Shown piece after piece: positions 8,617 through 56,357 of a stretch of DNA of 64,000 bases. The first letter of the stretch is position 1; each line of letters begins with the position of its first letter. The position numbers and the translations under genes are program-made. The DNA is from Octopus vulgaris (Eukaryota). The notes under the pieces are model-generated. The model saw only the letters and a program-made list of their open reading frames with translations, did not search any database and was not told where the DNA came from. The DNA lies in the NCBI GenBank assembly GCA_951406725.2, contig OX597832.1, forward strand, positions 36,580,001 to 36,644,000, read 5' to 3'.

Positions 8617-10739
8617 AATAATAATAATAATAACAATTTCTAACTTAGACACAGTTCCAAACAGAGTAATAGACCCCCAACATCTGATTGGTACTTTATT
8701 TTATGGACAATATAATATATTACATAAATCTAAAGAGTCGTTGGATGGTGATTCTTTTGGTAAATGAAAATAAATTGTTGTTAAAGCAGGAACATTTTAT
8801 GATGATGTGTATCAAAACCTATTTCTTAGATTCTGTTATAATTTTGGTGAGTGCATTCTTAGCAGATTCCTTTCAAAGAAAACCAACAATTGTTATGAAT
8901 ATCAATTATTCTTTAATCTTAACTCAATAATATTTATTCTTCAATATTTCTGAGATTAGTGTTTCATCCTTGAAGCATTTCTTTGAGGTATTTTTCCCTA
9001 CTTCTCAGCATTTATATATTTGTCCATTTATATTTCTTCTCAGCGTGGAAATAGCTTTTAGTCACCTGATCTTGCCTCACTCCATTATTTTCTTCTGTTC
9101 TTTATTGATTCTCAAAGCCATTTATCATATTTTGATATTCACCATTTAATTACCATCTGCAGACTTTTCTTGAAACTTGGCTGTCACCAATAAATTATGC
9201 CTTTCTCTTGACATTTCTTCTCTTATTATCTCTCGGGTATTAGCGTCTTCAATAATCCACTGAATTTGGTTTTGCTGCCTGTCAAACTCTTAATCCACAA
9301 CTGTCTGCAATTATTGGAAAATTAGTTGTTGTGGTGGTGGCTGTGGTCTTGGTGTCAGTTGTGGTAATGATAGTGATAGAGTGGGGACAATCATGGTGAT
9401 GCCACTAGTGGTAGTCATGGTAATGATGACAGTAGTGGTTGTAGTAGTAAAGGTTATTTTGAATTTTAAAATTTCTCATCCCAGTTATACCTGATGGTCC
9501 ATAACCTGTCTGTGATGGTGACTCTATGGTGAACATAACAGATGAGAGAATATGGCTTAGTGCTGTGTTTGATTCGTCATGCAACAACACAAGGTGCAAC
9601 ATTTGTATTGCTAGAGATGCAGGTGCATACATCTCTGTTAAGAAATCTGCAGAAATAGCAAAGTCTGCTACACTTCTAGTTTCAGTACACTATTCCTCAC
9701 CCATGAACCAGTGAGGAGGTCTCTACATGGTTGCTTACTCTGCCAGGAAAAGTAAGCAAATTTGCTCAAATGACCCTCTACCATCTTAAAACAAGAAGGC
9801 ATTATTGGACAATATAGAACTGTTTTGTGGGTTTGCTTGATCTTTGGTATGAAACAAATAGCATAATGAAATACATCAACTTCTCCAGTGGAACCCAATC
9901 TTACCATCAATGGTGTCTATTAATCAGTTTCACTATGTCTCAAGATCTCATATATACATTTTAATACTAAAACTACCCCATTTCACTACTGATAAATAAA
10001 TTATAGCATTTGTTTCTGTAGCAGTCTGGCCACATGTTTGAGCATCTCCTTTATACATCTTCATGGTTGAAATCAAATGTCATTTTGTTGTTATGAGTTC
10101 AAATATAATGTTGGTATCTCATATATGTGTATTTGTGAAGTGGAACATGAACTGAGGAGGAATAGTTAGCATTTCTTTTGAGAAATCATCTCAGGCTGGC
10201 AACCTATTATGAGTAGAAAGATTTTACTTCTATCATTTTAATACCATAAAACTGGTGCTAAACTCTGCTCCTTAGAAATCAGTTGGTGCTAAGGGACATT
10301 TATATTAACTTACAAACTTTATTTTCCATCAGCAATTTTCAAACAAGACTTTTATACTTGGTACCGTCTCAGGCAACTATTGACATAGGAAGCCATGTTT
10401 GCAGTGGTGGTGGTGGGTCAGAATGGGAAGTCATGCAGGTTGTGGGAACTCATGTTGGTTGATGACATAAAATAATAAACAGATAGCCTATCTATAGAGC
10501 ACCTGCCAAAATCTGATCACAACATAAGCACTTATCAAAGAAACCATAAGGGTCCACTTATCAACTTGATTACAAAAGGACTACTTAAACACTACCCTAC
10601 CTCTTCACTTGATGTGTATTCATCTTGTTCAACCCTTCAAATAACTATCAACTGTGATCAACTTTTCTTCCATCATACGGACCCATCACTAACCAATTTT
10701 AATAAAGTATTTGTATTTAAGAGCAAATCTCAACTGAAA

Positions 10740-10834
10740 TCATCATCATCATCGTTTAATGTCCGCTTTCCATGCTAGCATGGATTGGACGATTTTGACT
10801 GAGGGCTGGCGAACCAGATGGCTGCACCAGGCTC
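10740..10834 (-). mobile_element. Extreme 3' end of RTE LINE with (GAT)n tail
   Basis: CATCATCATCATCGTTTAATGTCCGCTTTCCATGCTAGCATGG, same as 20146-20230. Confidence 0.85.
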
Positions 10835-19522: not shown

Positions 19523-19932
19523 TTAAATCAATGCTTTGAAAAGACATGTACGTAGATTGCATATCCAATTTGGAGCTGCAGTTAAGTTCTGATCTTTGTG
19601 CGTCTTAAAATGTCTTTTGAAATCTCTTTTAGATTTGCAGTCATTCTGGCATACATTGCATCGATATGTATGCACAGGCATGTAGGCAGAATAGCTGGTG
19701 CAGATTCGTTTCCAATGGGTTGGGAAATGAGATTTGATCCTAGCAAACGAAAAGCATGGTCTGTCACAAACTGTGCACAAAAAGACATTGTGATACACCT
19801 TCGTGATTGTAACAAGTTTTGCATGTATGTCCCTGACCACTTCAAATGCTTTCACTCCAGTCTTTTGTTCGCCATCCAGCTCGATATGCAGCAAGAGTCT
19901 CTATGCCCTCTCGATTAATTCCAAAGGACATC
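19523..19932 (-). pseudogene. 3' end of an RTE-like LINE ORF carrying two C2H2 zinc fingers
   Basis: [24 protein letters not shown] (RTE C-terminal WETLA.DR..WR type) is followed, after a frameshift, by FLCTVCDRPCFSFARIKSHFPTH and YRCNVCQNDCKSKRDFKRHFKTH. Confidence 0.65.
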
Positions 19933-19940
19933 ATATATAT

Positions 19941-19978
<38 letters not shown>

Positions 19979-20055
19979 ATGTATGTATGTACATATATAA
20001 AAATATATGAATATGTATGCATATAAATATATATTTATATATATGTATACACATA

Positions 20056-20134
<79 letters not shown>

Positions 20135-20145
20135 AATTATATATG
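19933..20145. repeat. Compound (TA)n/(TG)n microsatellite
   Basis: Read directly from the sequence. Confidence 0.95.
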
Positions 20146-20972
20146 TCATCATCATCATCATCGTTTAACATCCGCTTTCCATGCTAGCATGGGTTGGATG
20201 ATTTGACTGAGGTCAGGCGAACCAGGCTCCAATCTGATCTGGCAGAGTTTCTACAGCTGGATGCCCTTCCTAATGCCAACCACTCTGAGTGTGTAGCGGG
20301 TGCTTTTAGGTGCCACCAGCACGAGGGCCAGTCAGGCGGTACTGGCAACGGCCACACTCAAATGGTGCTTTTTATGTGCCACCTGCACAGGAGCCAGTCC
20401 AGTGGCACTGGCAATGGCCTCGCTTGAATGTTTTCTCATGTGCCACCAGCAGGCAGTACTATCATCAGCCACGTCATTGATTTTTATTTGTTTACACTTG
20501 TCTCAATAGGTCTTCGCAAGCTAAAGTTCATTATCAAATGAATGAGGGGTACTCATAAGTGAGCTGGTTACACCCCATGTTTGGATGTGCTTTTACCGTT
20601 CCACTGGCACGCATGGCAATCAGGCGGTACTGTCATTGGCCATGTCAGTAATTTCGATTTTGATTTCACTTGCCTCAATAGGTCTTCACAAGCAAGGTTT
20701 ATTGTCCAATGAATGAGGGGTATTCATAAATGGGCTGGGTACACCCACTGGCATAGGCCATGGGCTATGGTCTCACTTGGCTTGTCAAGTCTTCTCAAGC
20801 ACAGCATATCTCAAAAGATCCCGGTCACTAGTCATTGCCTCGGTAAGGCCCAATGTTCGAAGGTCATGCTTCACCACCTCAGTCCAGGTTTTCCTGGGTC
20901 TACCTCTTCCACAGGTTCTCTCAACAGCTAGGGTATGATACTTTTTCACACAGCTGTCCTCATTCATTTGCA
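20146..20972 (-). mobile_element. 5'-truncated RTE LINE (ORF C-terminus, 3' UTR and (GAT)n tail), inverted relative to the adjacent copy
   Basis: ORF 20785-20991(-) MNEDSCVKKYHTLAVERTCGRGRPRKTWTEVVKHDLRTLGLTEAMTSDRDLLRYAVLEKT is homologous to 22560-22762(+). The UTR mirrors 22830-23282. Confidence 0.9.
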
Positions 20973-23282
20973 TGAATGGATGATGGTGCACTTGCTTTTA
21001 GTGATTCTGAAAAGAAAGAGACTTGGAGAAGCCATTATGAAAGACTGCTGAATGTGGAGAATGAATGGGAGGAGGAGAGCCTTCCAAATGTTGACCCAGT
21101 AGAGGGACCAGCTATCCCAATAGACAGTTCCCTAGTAGATAAAGTAATTAAGGGTATGAAGCCAGGAAAAGCCCCTGGCCCATCAGGAATCACTGCTGAG
21201 ATGCTTAAAGCATCTGGTGGTGTGGGCTATGGCTTAGTCACCCGCAATGTAAACCAGGTAGTACATAACAGAGTCATACCCAATGACTGGTGTAGCAGCA
21301 TCATAGTCAGCTGCTACAAGGGTAAAGGTGATGCTCTAGATAGGAATAACTACAGGAGTATTAAACTGCTGGATCAGGTGATGAAGGTCACAGAGAGGGT
21401 CATAGTCCATCTCATTAGATGAGATGCAGTTTGGTTTTGTTTTGGGTAGAAGCACCACTGATGCTATATTCCTGGTTCGACAACTGCAGGAGAAATACCT
21501 AGCTAAAGATAAACCCCTCTACTTAGCTTTTGTGGACTTGGAGAAAGCCTTTGACAGGGTCCCCCAATCCCTTATCTGGTGGGCAATGCGGAAACTGGAG
21601 ATTGACGAATGATTGATAAGGGCTGTACAGGCCCTATACAGAGAGGCCATTAGTAAGGTTAGGATTGGCAACAAGTATAGTGAAGAATTCCGGGTAGAAG
21701 TAGGGGTCCACCAAGATTCAACCCTTAGTCCCCTTCTATTCATCGTAGTCCTCCAGGCAATAACAGAGGAATTCAAGACGGGTTGCCCTTGGGAGCTCCT
21801 CTATGCTGATGACCTAACCCTCATAGCAGAATCACTACCGAAACTAGAAAAGAAATTTTGGGTGTGTAAGCTAGGTTTAGAATCAAAGGGCTTTAGAGTA
21901 AATGTAGCAAAGACCAAAGTTATAGTAAGCAGAAAGGCGAACTCATCACACACACCTTCGGGCAGGTGGCCCTGCTTGATCTGTAGAAAAATTGTAGGTA
22001 GAAACTCCATAAGATGTACCCAGTGTAAGCTATGGATGCATAGGAGGTGCAGTAACATCAAAGGAATATTAACCGATAAGATAACTTTCATGTGGGTTAG
22101 ATGCACAGGGGCAATTGACACCACAGATACTCAGAAAACAAATTCCATCACACTCCAGGGGAAGAAACTAGAAGTAGTTAATAGTTTCCGCTACCTAGGT
22201 GACCAAGTTAGTAGTGAAGGTGGATGCTCAGAGAGTGTCACCACTAGAATACGAATATCCTGAGCAAAGTTTAGAAAGCTCCTACTCCTACTGGTGACAA
22301 AGGGTCTCTCACTCAGAGTGAAAGATAGATTGTACGATGCATGTGTGCAAACTGCCATGCTTCACGGTAGTGAAACATGGGCTGTGACTGCAGAGGACAT
22401 GCGTAGGCTTGAAAGTAATGAAGCTAGCATGATCTGCTGGATGTGTAATATCAGTGTGCACACACGACAAAGTGTAAGCACTCTGAGAGAAATGCTGGAC
22501 ATAAGAAGCATCAGATGTGATGTACAAAAGAAATGTTTGCGCTGGTATGGTCATGTACTGCGGATGGATGAAGAGAGATGTGTGAAGAAGTGCCACTCCC
22601 AAACAGTTGAAGGTATCCGGGGGGGGGGGAGGTAGACCCAGGAAGACATGGGATGAGGTAGTCAAGCATGACCTTCGAACGTTGGGCCTCACAGAGGCAA
22701 TGACGAAAGACCAAGATCTCTGGAGATATGCTGTGACTGCAAAGACCCGAGAAATAATGTGAGTTCATGGCTGCTTCCTGCACTAGTTTTGCATAGCCCC
22801 AATCCATCTGAAGTGCCGTGGATTGCAGAATGACCTGCTGTGCTTGAGGAGACCTATTGAGTCAAGTACATAACATCAACATCAAAATAAATATTAAATG
22901 GAAATTATAGTTGTGATACCTGTGCTGGCGGCACGTAAAAAGCACCATCCGAACATGGTCGATGCCAGTGCCGCCTTGACTGGCTTTTGTGCCGGTGGCA
23001 CGTGACCTGCTGTCCTTGAGGGCACCTATTGAGTCAACTACATAACGTCAACATCAAAATAAATATCAAATGGAAATTATAGTTGTGATATCTGTGCTGG
23101 TGGCACGTAAAAAGCACCCACTACACTCAGGCAGTGGTTGGCGTTAGGAAGGGCACCAGCTGTAGAAACACTGCCAGATCAGACTGGAGCCTGATGCAGC
23201 CTCCTGGCTTCCCAGACCCCAGTCGAACCGTCCAACCCATGCTAGCACGGAAAACGGACGTTAAACGACGATGATGATGATG
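20973..23282 (+). mobile_element. 5'-truncated RTE-clade LINE: disrupted reverse transcriptase ORF (20976-22762), 3' UTR and (GAT)n tail
   Basis: RT motifs GKAPGPSGI, NYRSIKLL, QFGF..GRSTTDAIF, AFVDLEKAFDRVP, GVHQDSTLSPLLF, LLYADDL, FRYLG, HGSETW, LRWYGHVLRM, GRPRKTW. Broken by stops and frameshifts near 21422, 21612, 22263 and 22630. Confidence 0.95.
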
Positions 23283-23602
<320 letters not shown>

Positions 23603-23915
23603 TTAGAAGAAATAAGGTACTCAGAAATCTGGATGGTTTTATATTTACAGATATTTATTTATTGATATGTCATGTTTTTATAAAACATATACCAGCGCTT
23701 GTGTCCACTCTAGTGGAGTCTTCAGATTGAATTTTTGCAGGAGATTTTGTCTCTTTATAGTAGTATTGAGTGTGTAGGGGTGGAGAGAGATAGTACAAAA
23801 GGGTGAGGAATGGGGAGAAAGTGAGAGAGTGCGTGTGTGTGTGTGTGTATTATTTTTCAAAAAATTGTCTGAATTTCTTTTTATCATTGTCTTGTGTGTG
23901 TGTGTGAGAGATAGA

Positions 23916-24115: not shown

Positions 24116-24298
24116 ACCATACTGGTGGCACATAAAAAGCACTCATTACTCTGTTGGAGGGGTTGACATTAGGAAAGGCGTCTAACCATAGAAACCATGC
24201 CAAATCAGACTGGAATCTGGTGTAGCTCTTTTTGCTTGCTAGCTCTGGTCGATCCATCCAACCCATGCCAGCATGGAAAACAGATGTTAAATAATGAT
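24116..24298 (+). mobile_element. RTE 3' UTR fragment
   Basis: GGTGGCACATAAAAAGCAC...CCAACCCATGCCAGCATGGAAAACAGATGTTAAATAATGAT. Confidence 0.8.
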
Positions 24299-24957: not shown

Positions 24958-25822
24958 CAGTATACGCAGACATGACTGAATTAAATAGACGCCCTTATAA
25001 TTGTTAAAATTTATTTAAATCTGAAATTATACATTCAGATTATTTATTAATTGTTATAAAGTGAATATTTAGTAGACATGCACCTTGCATTTTTCAATGC
25101 AAGGACCCTGTTAGGCATCTTACTGATCAGATGGCAAATGTTCCCTTGAGGTGTTTCTTGCCAAGTTTCAAGCTGTAATCTCAAAAGAGCTGGCTTTGAA
25201 GATGCTTTCTTGTTCTTTTATGAAATGTCCTATCCATTATGTCCCAGAGGTGATCAGTAGGGTTCATATCTGGTGACTGGTTTGGCTATGGAATCTTTTT
25301 AATGCCATTCTCATCCAACAAATCTGGGCCATTTTAACCATGTGACATGGAGCCCCATCTTCATAAATAAAGACTTCTTTAATCATTTCACCACTGGAGA
25401 AGATTGGAAGGAGTTCTTTCTGCAATATGGATGTACATTTATCTGAGTTTATGTTTCCCTCACACTCCACCTGCTCTGATTGACCATTGCTCTGAATCGT
25501 TCCCCAGACCATCACAGAATAACTGCTGTGTTTCATTGTTGGCTGCAATCTTTTCACATCAAATTCTTGATCACGGAGTCTCGAGACCCACACTCTACTA
25601 CTGTCAGGAAATACAACAAATCTGGACTCATTGGAGAAAATGACAATGTCCCAAAATGCTAGTGGCCTCTCCACCATCTCACTGGCCCAATCTTTTCTCC
25701 ACTTGACATTGACTGGTCAAAGAAGTGGCTTGCTTCTTGCTGCTCTGCCAGAGTAACCAAGTTTGTGGAGCTACTTGACAACTGTTTTGGGACTGATAAT
25801 GTGTTCTGCTATATCATAGTCA
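24958..25822 (-). pseudogene. Tc1-family (DD34E-type) transposase relic, 5' part cut at a SINE
   Basis: ISPKTVVK*LHKLGYSGRAARSKPLL*PVNVKWRKDWA...WDIVIFSNESRF...VMVWGTI...EGNINSDK...YEDGAPCH...PNQSPDMNPTDHLWD...MSTKY. Possible terminus TA|CAGT at 24956-24961. Confidence 0.88.
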
Positions 25823-50401: not shown

Positions 50402-52631
50402 ATGATGATGATATATATATATATTGTTGGAACATTTGCTGTTAGAGCTAAATAGTGATGTCCTTATCACTAACCACTGAACCATGAGTGAGCTCACACA
50501 CACAGATAGAGAAATATTGAAACAGCTGTTTTTATAGCAGGGATGTTATCTCTCCCCACTCAACTGTAAAGTAGGATTGAGGCTTTGTATTCCTTTAGCT
50601 GGACAGAGCAGAGTTATGGACCTTGCTGAAGGGAGTCACTCATACACTGGCTGCAATAAGATCTGAACTGATGACCACAGCATCAAGAAGTTCAGTAAAT
50701 TAACCTTACAGCTACTGTGCCTATCTTAAAATTTCTCTGCAGATAAAAATGGCCATCCTGCTGCTACCCTTTTCCTACCCTTTCATTAAATGAAGGGATG
50801 TTATGAAGGATGAAGGTTGTTGCTGAGGAATACAACAGAAATGGCAGTTACATGTTGCAGACATTGCAGTTGACCATCTTAAACATAGTCTGTGCTGTAT
50901 ATATATACATATATATAAAAGACAGGATGTGACTATTTGGAGCATCTTTGGCCGTAGAGTTGTCCTGTGCCTAAACAACAGCAATACACTTAGGATGGTT
51001 TTCAATGGTCAACATATAAATAAACAACTCACTACTTTGCCTATTTGGTCATTTTATTTTGCCGTACACCTCATCAGTTTTCTTTTTATTCTGTTATTTG
51101 TTTTGGTCACTACTGAGGCCATGTTGTAGCACTTTAAAAGAGATAAAAGCAAAAAAACCCCACCCATTTCTAAATTAGTCATTTAGTTTATACTTATTGG
51201 TTATTTCCACTCTTTTTTCTTTCTTCCACATTTCTCATTAATGGAAACTCGTAAGCGCTATTTCATTTATCAGTCTTTCTTCTTTTTCAGTTCCCCTTTC
51301 TTCCTCCCGCTTCAGATGTTACAGCTTTAGTTTAACTAATTTGACCATCGTTAGGCACTACATAATTCCAGGCCTTTTTGTTACCTGTTCGTTAACGTAC
51401 CTGTCTTACATGAAACTTCCCTTTAATTAATAGCGCCTCAATGGTTTTTTTCTTTTCTCTTTCTCTCTCTTCTCGGTACTCCCCACCCTGGCTGGTAACA
51501 TCTTCCAGCTAAATTAACAACAACCCTGTTAACTCCCTATTCATTATACACAAATGATATTGTATAGTCTTGTGCACCATATATATCAGTAAGTGTGTGT
51601 ATGTATGTATGTATGTATGTGTATGTATGTTCCTCTGCATTTGTGATTTGTGCTGTCATTACTATCATCATTAGTATCATCCAACATGCTTTTTGGTTTG
51701 TTTTCCTTTGATGGCATTAATTGGAACAATTTCCAAAACCATCTTTCTTTCTTTCTCTCAATTGTCTGTTAGTTTGAACATAGCAAACAGTTAGTCTTCA
51801 CTGACCAAGCTCTGCTCTAGCTACCATTCACTACTGTTACTAGTCCGTACTGCCATCACCTACCGCTACACTAGTTACCATCACATGTCCATAACGCAAC
51901 CACCAACCTCTCTTCACTTCCTTTCACTAACATCACATGACCATACCATTGAAATTTGTGGGTGGTGCAGTTGGTGGTACCGCTGCATTGTCTTGCAGTT
52001 GACATGTGTGTGTGTGTATATTAAGTGCATATCTGTATATCTTATATGTGTTTGTGTTTATATATTCTGAAACTATCAATCAACTCTGTGATATTGCCAC
52101 ATCTAAAAACACCGCAGACCTACTCAAATCTTTGATGCAATATGTTGCAGATATGCATCTGCACATTTACCATATAATTACATCTAATTAGTGTGCGGTA
52201 GATTATGTGCAACACGGCTGCACTTTATTGTGATTGGCTCTGCTGCATGATGAAGCTAGCAGAGTAAAAAGACTCAATGTGCAGATACACAGTTGCAACA
52301 AACGATGCTGTTACATTCTCCATTCAACAATTCCAACCATCTTTGATTAATCTCATAGTTTTCTAATCACATTTTCTCAACTCAAAAAATTCCATCAACT
52401 TTCATTATCTTTATTGTCTGCATTGCTTTGTTATTGCTGGTAGTGGTGTTGTTGCTATTGTTGTTTCTGTTATTGTTTGTGTTGATTATTTATGGTGTAG
52501 TAATGGTGTTGTTGGTCATATTATTGCTGTTGGTGATGGTGGTAGTGGTGGTGTTGTTGGCGATGATGGTTGTGTTATTAAGGTATTGTTGTTATTAGTA
52601 ACGGTGTTATTGGTATTGTTAATTCCTGATC

Positions 52632-52948
52632 GTCATCATCATTTAGTGCCAGTTTTCCATGCTGGCATGGGGTCAGGTATCTTGACTGGAACTTGTAAGC
52701 CAGAGAGCTTGCACCCGGTTCCAGTCTGTCTTTACTTGGTTTCTATGGCTGGATGCCCTTCCTGACAGCAACCACTCCATAAAGTGTACTGGGTGCCATA
52801 AGCATGTCACTGGCATGGGTGCCTTTAATGTATCACCAGCACAGGTGCCTTTTATGTGTTACTGGCATGAGTGCCTCTAACGTGTCACCAGCATGGGTGC
52901 CTCTAACATGTCAGCAGCATGAGTGCCTTTTACGTGTCCCTGGCATGT
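52632..52948 (-). mobile_element. RTE 3' UTR fragment with its ~26-nt module expanded in tandem
   Basis: TCATCATCATTT...TTTTCCATGCTGGCATGG...GGCTGGATGCCCTTCC, then about 6 copies of GTGCCT(T/C)T.A.(G/A)TGTCAC..GCAT(G/A). Confidence 0.8.
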
Positions 52949-55426: not shown

Positions 55427-56357
55427 ATCATCATTTAACATCTGTTTTCCATGCTGGCATGGGTTGGACAGTTTGACTGAAGACTGTTGAGCCAGATGGC
55501 TGTACCAGGCTCCAATCTGATCTGGCAGTGTTTCTACAGCTGGATGCCCTTCCTAATCCCAACCACTCCGAGAGTGTAGTGGGTGCTTTTACGTGCCACC
55601 GGCACGAGACCCAGTCAGGTAGTACTGGCTATAGCCATGCTCAAATGGTGTTTTTTACATGCCACCTACATAGGCACTCTCACTCAGAGTAAATGGTAGA
55701 CTGTATGATGCATGTGTAGAAACAGCCATGCTACATGGTAGTGAAACATGGGCCGTGACTGCTGAGGACATTCATAAGCTTGCAAGAAATGAAGACCATA
55801 ACCCATGGTATATTCCAGGGATGTAACCAGCCCACTTATGCATACCTTTCCTTCATTGGACACTAAATTCTGCTTGCGAAGACCTGTTGAAGGAAGTGAA
55901 ATCGAAATCAAAATCAAATTTGATGACTGGCATCCGTGCTAGTGGAACGCTAAGAACACCATCTGAGTGTTATCATTGCCAGAGCATCTGACTGGCTTCC
56001 GTGCTGGTGGCATGTAAAAAGCACCATTCGAGCAAAATCATTACCAGCGTCACCTTACTGGCACTTGTGCCGGTTGGACATTAAAAATATTCGGCTGAGG
56101 TCATTGCAAGTGCCACTATACTGGCTACTGTGTAGTTGGCATGTAAAAAACACCATTTCGAGCATGGCTGTTGCCAGTACCACGTAAAAGCACCCACTAC
56201 ACTCTGAGTGGTTGGCATACGGAAGGGCATCCAGCTGTAAAAACACTGCCAGATCAGATTGGAGCCTGGTGCAGCCATCTGGTTCACCAGTCCTCAGTCA
56301 AATCGTCCAACCCATGCCAGCATGGAAAGCGGATGTCAAACGATGATGATGATGATG
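55427..56357. mobile_element. Fold-back RTE composite: minus 3' UTR (55427-55676) plus an internally deleted plus-strand RTE (55677-56357)
   Basis: 55677-55794 encodes LSLRVNGRLYDACVETAMLHGSETWAVTAEDIHKLARNE (cf. 22305-22420). Both ends carry outward-facing (GAT)n tails and are flanked by (TA)/(TG) microsatellites. Confidence 0.9.

What the first reader, a model, noticed from the sequence alone, without database searches (positions are those of the whole stretch)
20146..23282. Fold-back RTE composite: two LINE 3' ends fused head-to-head, tails outward, inside a microsatellite
Seen: a minus-strand RTE 3' end (~830 nt) abuts a plus-strand 5'-truncated RTE with no spacer, so the unit has long terminal inverted arms ending in (GAT)n. 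The junction is itself a small hairpin, CATTCAT-TTGC-ATGAATG (20961-20978). The two arms differ in sequence (e.g. NEDSCVKKYHTLAV vs DEERCVKKCHSQTV), so this is not ordinary single-template twin priming, which does not duplicate the 3' end. The same design recurs at 55427-56357. Inference: two different RTE RNAs primed on opposite strands of one break in a TA/TG tract and were joined by microhomology. The product would form long dsRNA in the host pre-mRNA, a potential ADAR or siRNA substrate in a lineage known for heavy A-to-I editing. This is my best candidate for an undescribed mechanism here.
Basis: partly seen in the sequence, partly recalled or inferred. Interest (0 to 1): 0.78.

Follow-up and report, generated by a model that had tools for sequence, protein, structure and literature searches.

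The report
Two retrotransposon copies fused head-to-head
Two different, truncated copies of a jumping gene sit joined at their cut ends with tails pointing outward inside a simple repeat; they were likely copied into one DNA break at the same time, a route already proposed and seen for human L1, although two separate insertions followed by loss of the DNA between them is nearly as likely.

Summary
The structure is real: a minus-strand LINE 3' end (20146-20972) abuts a plus-strand 5'-truncated copy (20973-23282), both with (GAT)n tails, in a TA/TG tract. The arms are 76-82% identical and come from different subfamilies.

Such units recur but are rare: 0 among 125 3' ends in a 1.6-Mb sample. A genome-wide pattern gave 50 short head-to-head loci; of 47 read, 12 are two-tailed fusions, 6 are spaced, 26 are one-template fold-backs and 3 are other. 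Fusions also occur tail-to-tail (7) and in tandem (about 10), so the head-to-head excess is only about twofold (p=0.06).

The mechanism is not undescribed: 'dual priming' was proposed for L1 in 2010 (PMC2837659), and two-RNA inverted insertions are reported from L1 cells and tumours. Best reading: dual priming (0.45). Rivals: later spacer deletion (0.30) and insertion with target deletion (0.15). The target-duplication and read tests had no power. The dsRNA claim is ordinary: 55 of 125 copies already have an inverted partner within 3.2 kb.

The parts
19933..20144 (.). left (TA)n/(TG)n microsatellite, target tract
   Evidence: TRF period 2, 106 copies
20146..20163 (-). (GAT)n tail of the minus arm, pointing outward
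   Evidence: sequence
20146..20972 (-). minus arm: LINE subfamily A, last ~60 codons of the ORF plus 3' UTR (internal 126-nt repeat at 20450-20575 / 20621-20746, 82%)
   Evidence: nearest genomic relatives 90-93% over 273 nt; family sequence continues past 20972 in relatives; internal repeat
20961..20978 (.). blunt 5'-to-5' joint at 20972/20973 with a 7-bp hairpin formed by look-alike ends of the two arms
   Evidence: only one genomic match spans the joint among 40 scored of 3296 candidates; overlap 0 nt; hairpin null 0.013
20973..23282 (+). plus arm: LINE subfamily B, 5'-truncated just before the RT domain, frameshifted and with stops; RT, weak PHD-like finger, C-terminus, 3' UTR with a 116-nt repeat (22831-22946 / 23003-23118, 93%)
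   Evidence: RVT_1 E=4.5e-7 and 2.1e-9, PHD E=0.0013 below cut-off; relatives 96-99% over the first ~97 nt, 85-93% over ~1.3-1.6 kb
23270..23282 (+). (GAT)n tail of the plus arm, pointing outward
   Evidence: sequence
23283..23603 (.). right (TA)n/(TG)n microsatellite
   Evidence: TRF
55427..56357 (.). second head-to-head unit: minus arm 55427-~55672 (3' UTR only), plus arm ~55670-56357 with an internal deletion; about 3 nt overlap; terminal identity 0.91
19526..19900 (-). neighbouring open frame with two C2H2-type zinc fingers, a likely host exon; not part of the unit
   Evidence: zf-C2HE E=1.5e-5, zf-C2H2_4 E=0.0013, both below curated cut-off

Best explanation
The unit is two 5'-truncated LINE copies from different subfamilies joined bluntly at their 5' ends, and it likely formed in one event by dual priming at a single break in a TA/TG tract. 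Inferred steps: one RNA primed reverse transcription from the bottom-strand nick and a second RNA from the top-strand nick, each at its (GAT)n tail. Both cDNAs stopped early and their 3' ends were joined without direct microhomology, by end joining or by a template jump of the reverse transcriptase. The look-alike motif at the two ends would have let one cDNA end pair with the other RNA and hold the ends together (speculative). The product is an inert, decayed insertion with no shown function.
For: Shown: two templates (76-82% alike, each with closer relatives elsewhere); both tails intact and outward; no 5' part of the plus-arm family in the window, so not nested; blunt joint. Ages agree: private non-CpG differences 15/351 vs 76/1452, p=0.59. 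Class evidence: 12 two-tailed fusions among 47 loci read (of 50), on top of 6 spaced pairs, which match the 7.6 expected from independent insertion. Mirror tail-to-tail fusions number 7; about 5 head-to-head fusions were expected from deletion (my scaling, 0.75 x 7), 12 seen. Fused arms are more alike than random pairs: 6 of 12 at 0.90 or more vs 13%, p=0.002; 0 of 6 measurable tail-to-tail controls (8 fetched) reach 0.90. They differ more than fold-back arms (124/1123 vs 66/1067, p=5e-5), so they are not copies of one cDNA. The two 5' ends match in the same sense over 8 nt now and 10 nt in 4 of 5 relatives tried; null 0.009 and 0.002 (post hoc). Precedent: PMC2837659, PMC11702581 section 7, bioRxiv 10.1101/2024.08.27.596794.
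Against: The excess over the mirror class is marginal (p=0.06; p=0.18 at equal odds). Fused pairs occur in all three orientations: about 10 single tandem fusions by eye among the 100 of 274 matches listed, so plain deletion happens. Copies pile up in one TA tract in every orientation (about 184 close tail-to-tail pairs). This unit's arms are only 0.79 alike at the terminus, below the median of random pairs (0.82) and below 11 of the 12 fused loci, which fits independent insertions better. No complex target-site duplication flanks the unit or any of the fused loci that one search scored (best for this unit: a 10-nt TA-rich match), although that test has no power here. The second unit has no look-alike hairpin.
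Confidence: 0.45

Rival explanations
1. Two independent insertions into the same or nearby TA tracts in head-to-head orientation, followed later by a deletion that removed the spacer and part of both 5' ends (a TA tract at the centre of an inverted repeat is a likely break site).
For: Spaced head-to-head pairs exist at the expected rate (6 seen, 7.6 expected; also L028). Fusions exist tail-to-tail (7) and in tandem (about 10), roughly the ratio a deletion process predicts. Arms are no more alike than random pairs. Solo copies rarely keep a complex target duplication (2 of 106), so these flanks are unstable.
Against: Head-to-head fusions exceed the expectation about twofold (p=0.06) and their arms are on average more alike than random or tail-to-tail pairs. 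It gives no reason for the look-alike ends. Some of the 7 mirror loci have near-identical arms in the listing and may not be deletions, which would lower the background.
Confidence: 0.3
2. A second copy inserted next to an older one and its 5' end was joined into the older copy, deleting the target DNA between them during the same insertion.
For: Explains head-to-head above tail-to-tail without two simultaneous RNAs. Fits different subfamilies and the scarcity of target duplications. Deletions and other changes at L1 insertion sites are reported in PMC11702581.
Against: It predicts a matching excess of tandem fusions; the tandem count (about 10 single loci plus arrays) is already close to what plain deletion predicts. 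The arms do not differ in age (p=0.59).
Confidence: 0.15
3. The joint is one bridge of a larger rearrangement (inversion or translocation) made by two synchronous insertions at distant sites, so the two flanks were not neighbours before.
For: This geometry is described for L1 at a 2.67-Mb inversion in a tumour (bioRxiv 10.1101/2024.08.27.596794). No target duplication ties the two flanks together.
Against: Both flanks are the same kind of tract. Nothing tested here shows a break in synteny.
Confidence: 0.05
4. Assembly error joining two repeat copies.
Against: Fold-back chimeras give identical arms, not two subfamilies. Both arms carry CpG-type differences from their relatives at the joint, as aged genomic copies do. 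The design recurs at other loci with diverged arms.
Confidence: 0.05

Closest known systems
Dual priming, proposed for primate L1 (PMC2837659, Mob DNA 2010; abstract and passages read)
   Same: [quoted passage not shown]
   Different: There the second arm was only poly(T), so twin and dual priming could not be told apart and validation was left open. Here both arms are long, from distinguishable subfamilies, with (GAT)n tails in a TA tract; but no target duplication can be read.
Two-transcript insertions in opposite orientation after induced L1 expression (PMC11702581; section 7 and passages read)
   Same: Opposite DNA ends extended by reverse transcriptase from different templates and ligated.
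   Different: Human cells, de novo, with target duplications and poly-A; nine two-transcript cases in all, orientation split not given in the text read. Here a decayed genomic copy of another LINE type.
L1 bridges of two 5'-truncated elements joined at their 5' breakpoints in tumours (bioRxiv 10.1101/2024.08.27.596794; passages read)
   Same: Identical geometry: inverted, joined 5' to 5', each with its own tail.
   Different: There the bridge marks an inversion or translocation between two sites; no rearrangement was shown here.
Twin priming (as described in PMC2837659 and PMC11702581)
   Same: Both nicks prime reverse transcription; inverted internal joint.
   Different: One RNA, one tail, adjacent non-overlapping segments. 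This unit has two tails and two templates.
Double insertion of elements at one target site (PMC5932611; passages read)
   Same: Repeated use of one target gives close pairs; seen here in all orientations in TA tracts.
   Different: Double insertion leaves target sequence in the joint; this joint has none.

Membership tests
RTE-clade LINE | Reverse transcriptase domain of non-LTR type | tested here: met
   RVT_1 above curated cut-off in two frames of the plus arm
RTE-clade LINE | AP-type endonuclease at the start of a single ORF, no separate ORF1 | tested here: inconclusive
   Cut off in this unit. A longer relative (L007) has Exo_endo_phos hits at E=5.5e-5 and 1.7e-4, below cut-off, and three relatives show that frame near their 5' end; absence of an ORF1 was not tested further upstream
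RTE-clade LINE | 3' end in a short microsatellite-like repeat (PMC6007223) | tested here: met
   (GAT)n on both arms and on 106 solo copies with a callable tail
RTE-clade LINE | Reverse transcriptase groups with named RTE elements in a tree | not tested
No reference sequences in hand.
Dual priming product | Two different RNA templates | tested here: met
   Arms 76-82% alike, each with closer relatives elsewhere
Dual priming product | Both arms keep their 3' tail, pointing outward, 5' ends joined with no target DNA between | tested here: met
Dual priming product | One target-site duplication flanking the whole unit | tested here: inconclusive
   Only a 10-nt TA-rich match; solo copies show complex duplications in 2 of 106 vs 6 of 522 shuffled pairs, so the test has no power
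Dual priming product | Both arms arose at once: empty orthologous site, no one-arm allele | not testable with these tools
   No related assemblies held; contig lays were swamped by repeats. Ages agree within error
Twin priming product | Single RNA template, one tail | tested here: not met
   Two subfamilies, two tails
Nested insertion | 5' remainder of the host copy on the far side of the inserted copy | tested here: not met
   Upstream 1.5 kb of six plus-arm relatives gave no LINE match in the window, only other repeats and microsatellites
Fold-back (snap-back) duplication of one cDNA | Arms are copies of one sequence | tested here: not met
   0.79 terminal and 0.76 ORF identity against 94% in the fold-back class

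The most novel reading that the evidence does not exclude
This LINE family resolves its free cDNA ends in the germ line by two regular, countable routes that leave inverted structures: snap-back copying of one cDNA (one tail) and true dual priming by two RNAs (two tails), the latter helped by pairing of one cDNA end with the second RNA. The genome would then hold hundreds of natural dual-priming products with distinguishable arms, the first population-scale test set for a mechanism left unvalidated in 2010.
Probability: 0.3. Interest if true: 0.55.

Novelty: new member of a known kind. Interest (0 to 1): 0.32.

Why it matters
If dual priming is right, it extends a mechanism known from human L1 to another LINE type in an invertebrate genome. 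The arms can be told apart by subfamily, which removes the twin-versus-dual ambiguity that PMC2837659 could not solve. It would also mean two retrotransposon particles often meet at one TA-tract break. The fold-back class found on the way (26 of 47 loci) shows a second route to short inverted repeats. If the deletion rival is right, the unit is an ordinary by-product of crowded insertion into fragile microsatellites. Either way it is a decayed insertion with no shown function, and it adds little double-stranded RNA potential beyond the many inverted neighbours already present.

Tried and rejected
1. Multi-copy composite element: rejected. Only the window itself matches across the joint among 40 scored candidates for each unit; scored candidates are a lower bound.
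2. Nested insertion, twin priming, one-cDNA fold-back: rejected for this unit.
3. Target-site duplication test: no power. Its automatic tail caller also disagreed with my reading at 6 of 47 loci (L249, L252, L256, L259, L266, L274), so classes were set by eye.
4. Random sample: 16 blocks of 100 kb, 125 3' ends, 0 complete zero-gap head-to-head units; too small to measure enrichment.
5. Public runs: no RNA holder listed. Lays on contigs of 7 different runs listed no piece bridging the joint; repeats swamped the tables and the tool states that a hole proves nothing. A contig matching 20450-20566 without differences is listed in runs X2 and X4 (organisms B, C), and two pieces with 0 and 1 difference in X1; I draw no conclusion from this.
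6. Tandem control at 141-201 nt: 701 matches, dominated by satellites, unusable. Head-to-head count at 121-181 nt: about 39 loci, not fetched or classified. The 8 mirror loci and the tandem loci were read from listings only; their flanks were not seen.
7. One search mixed loop sequence into the arm comparison and was redone as (23 of 26 fold-back and 10 of 12 fused loci used; L249, L256, L270, L232, L262 left out for short, tailless or foreign arms).
8. Earlier findings of this scan: none returned.
9. Literature: 'dual priming' with 'retrotranspos' returns one paper. Searches showed no report of such units for RTE elements or cephalopods; subscription journals are not covered. No supplements were read; Fig. 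S7 of PMC11702581 may hold closer examples.

Full report
Setting. The window is G000:C19:36580001-36644000 in a 2.8-Gb genome of 227 contigs. I take it to be an octopus from its size and repeats; this is inference, not a tool result.

Anatomy. A minus-strand LINE 3' end runs 20146-20972 and a plus-strand 5'-truncated copy runs 20973-23282. Each ends in (GAT)n, and period-2 microsatellites flank both sides. The arms align in three patches: 82% over 192 nt, 76% over 183 nt and 81% over 83 nt. The plus arm carries a broken reverse transcriptase (RVT_1). A longer relative carries an AP-endonuclease frame below Pfam cut-off. The label RTE was not tested by a tree.

The joint. A 191-nt probe across it matches whole only in the window; the other 39 scored places match the plus side alone. 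Relatives of each arm show where each family sequence continues. The minus arm follows its family to 20972 and the plus arm begins at 20973 or 20974, with no shared bases. So the joint is blunt. The 7-bp hairpin is real and occurs in 1.3% of simulated random joints. It exists because both arms stop at a look-alike sense motif: 8 matching bases now, 10 in 4 of 5 relatives tried, null 0.9% and 0.2%. Both statistics were chosen after seeing the sequence. The second unit at 55427-56357 has about 3 nt of overlap and no hairpin.

What it is not. It is not a multi-copy composite. It is not a nested insertion, since no 5' part of the plus-arm family lies in the window. It is not twin priming or a one-cDNA fold-back, since the arms belong to different subfamilies: nearest relatives are 90-93% for the minus arm and 96-99% for the start of the plus arm. 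Private non-CpG differences are 15/351 and 76/1452, not distinguishable.

How common. In 16 blocks of 100 kb there were 125 3' ends and no complete zero-gap head-to-head unit. Copies share TA tracts in every orientation. I then counted genome-wide with an exact 12-mer of the 3' UTR. Head-to-head at 61-121 nt gave 50 loci, intact tail-to-tail at 221-281 nt about 184, and tail-to-tail at the mirror distance of 61-121 nt 8 loci, 7 of them fusions of this family. Same-orientation pairs gave 274 matches, mostly satellites, with about 10 single fusions by eye among the 100 listed.

Classes. I fetched 47 of the 50 head-to-head loci; the 3 left out resemble L277 in the listing. By eye: 26 fold-backs, 12 two-tailed fusions, 6 spaced pairs, 3 other. 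The 6 spaced pairs match the 7.6 expected from independent insertion at the tail-to-tail density. In the fold-backs the tail-bearing arm reaches further 5' in 19 of 22 untied cases (25 scored, 3 ties; p=0.0009), usually with 1-5 nt overlap. That is the pattern predicted if a first-strand cDNA snaps back and copies itself. Their arms differ at 66/1067 sites against 124/1123 in two-tailed fusions (p=5e-5), so the latter come from two templates.

Simultaneous or sequential. For one event: 12 fusions against about 5 expected from the mirror class (p=0.06), and arms more alike than random pairs (6 of 12 at 0.90 or more vs 13%, p=0.002). For two events: fusions exist in all orientations, and this unit's arms (0.79) are less alike than the median random pair (0.82) and than 11 of the 12 fused loci. 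The target-duplication test has no power, since only 2 of 106 solo copies show a complex duplication against 6 of 522 shuffled pairs. Contig lays could not settle it. I put dual priming at 0.45, later deletion at 0.30, insertion with target deletion at 0.15, a rearrangement bridge at 0.05 and misassembly at 0.05. The two sequential routes together equal the best single one.

Double-stranded RNA. The terminal and ORF-end patches can pair in a duplex calculation (143-166 pairs each), but the longest perfect match is 17 nt, and 55 of 125 sampled 3' ends already have an inverted partner within 3.2 kb. A zinc-finger open frame lies on the minus strand at 19526-19900, so the unit may be intronic or upstream of a gene; transcription and editing were not tested.

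What is known. PMC2837659 (abstract and passages) names dual priming, draws this geometry, finds no microhomology at the inner joint and asks for validation. PMC11702581 (section 7 and passages) reports nine two-transcript insertions and explains those in opposite orientation as ligation of two reverse-transcribed ends; it also discusses cDNA self-annealing. bioRxiv 10.1101/2024.08.27.596794 (passages) describes two 5'-truncated L1 copies joined at their 5' breakpoints with both tails. bioRxiv 10.1101/2022.05.18.492429 (passages and section 8) describes short fold-back inversions at L1 sites. PMC5932611 (passages) covers double insertion. PMC9115989 (passages), PMC13282606 (part 1 of 3 and passages) and PMC6007223 (passages) cover octopus repeats and RTE tails; the passages seen do not mention such units. 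No supplements were read.

Verdict. A real and recurrent but rare structure. It works like L1 dual priming if it arose in one event, which is plausible but unproven. It is a new member of a known kind, not an undescribed mechanism. Interest 0.32.

Noticed in passing
L233, L234, L239-L241, L243, L244, L246-L250, L256, L258, L259, L263, L264, L266-L274: A fold-back class: the 5' end of a copy carries a short inverted duplicate of its own downstream sequence without a tail (26 of 47 loci). The tail-bearing arm reaches further 5' in 19 of 22, as expected for cDNA snap-back. In L270 the duplicate runs on into flanking DNA.
   Followed up: yes
16 sampled blocks, L041-L200: The family is very patchy: 0 3' ends in 6 of 16 blocks of 100 kb, 1 in two more, 5-23 in the rest. 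A probe from another LINE reverse transcriptase at the start of block C4 hit only blocks with 0-1 copies (C4, C8, C9, C25), a hint of separate genome compartments; numbers are small.
   Followed up: partly
L005 (reverse strand, about 490-810 and 929-1207); L021 about 2310-2430; L239 left flank: Near-perfect palindromes of unrelated sequence, arms of about 60-160 nt, set in TA tracts; possibly fold-back ends of another element.
   Followed up: no
G000:C16:18.7-23.9 Mb, C28:22.13 Mb, C28:3.69 Mb, C21:26.02 Mb, C7:4.476 Mb, C7:14.39 Mb, C1:6.283 Mb: Tandem arrays with units of about 39-200 nt built from the 3' UTR of this or a related family: satellites born from the element.
   Followed up: no
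L237: A spaced head-to-head pair with a 36-nt direct repeat around the whole unit and a partial copy between the arms; either serial target duplications or a local minisatellite.
   Followed up: partly
L253: A perfect palindrome of two tailed copies with a TA centre, arms 100% identical; a very recent fold-back or an assembly artefact.
   Followed up: no
window 19526-19900 (-): Open frame with two C2H2-type zinc fingers about 30 nt from the left microsatellite; no other exon of the gene was identified.
   Followed up: partly
window 25267-25716 (-): Decayed DDE transposase fragment, DDE_3 E=0.03.
   Followed up: no
window 10739-10834 (-), 24122-24291 (+), 52629-52796 (-): Three further solo 3' ends of the same LINE family.
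   Followed up: no
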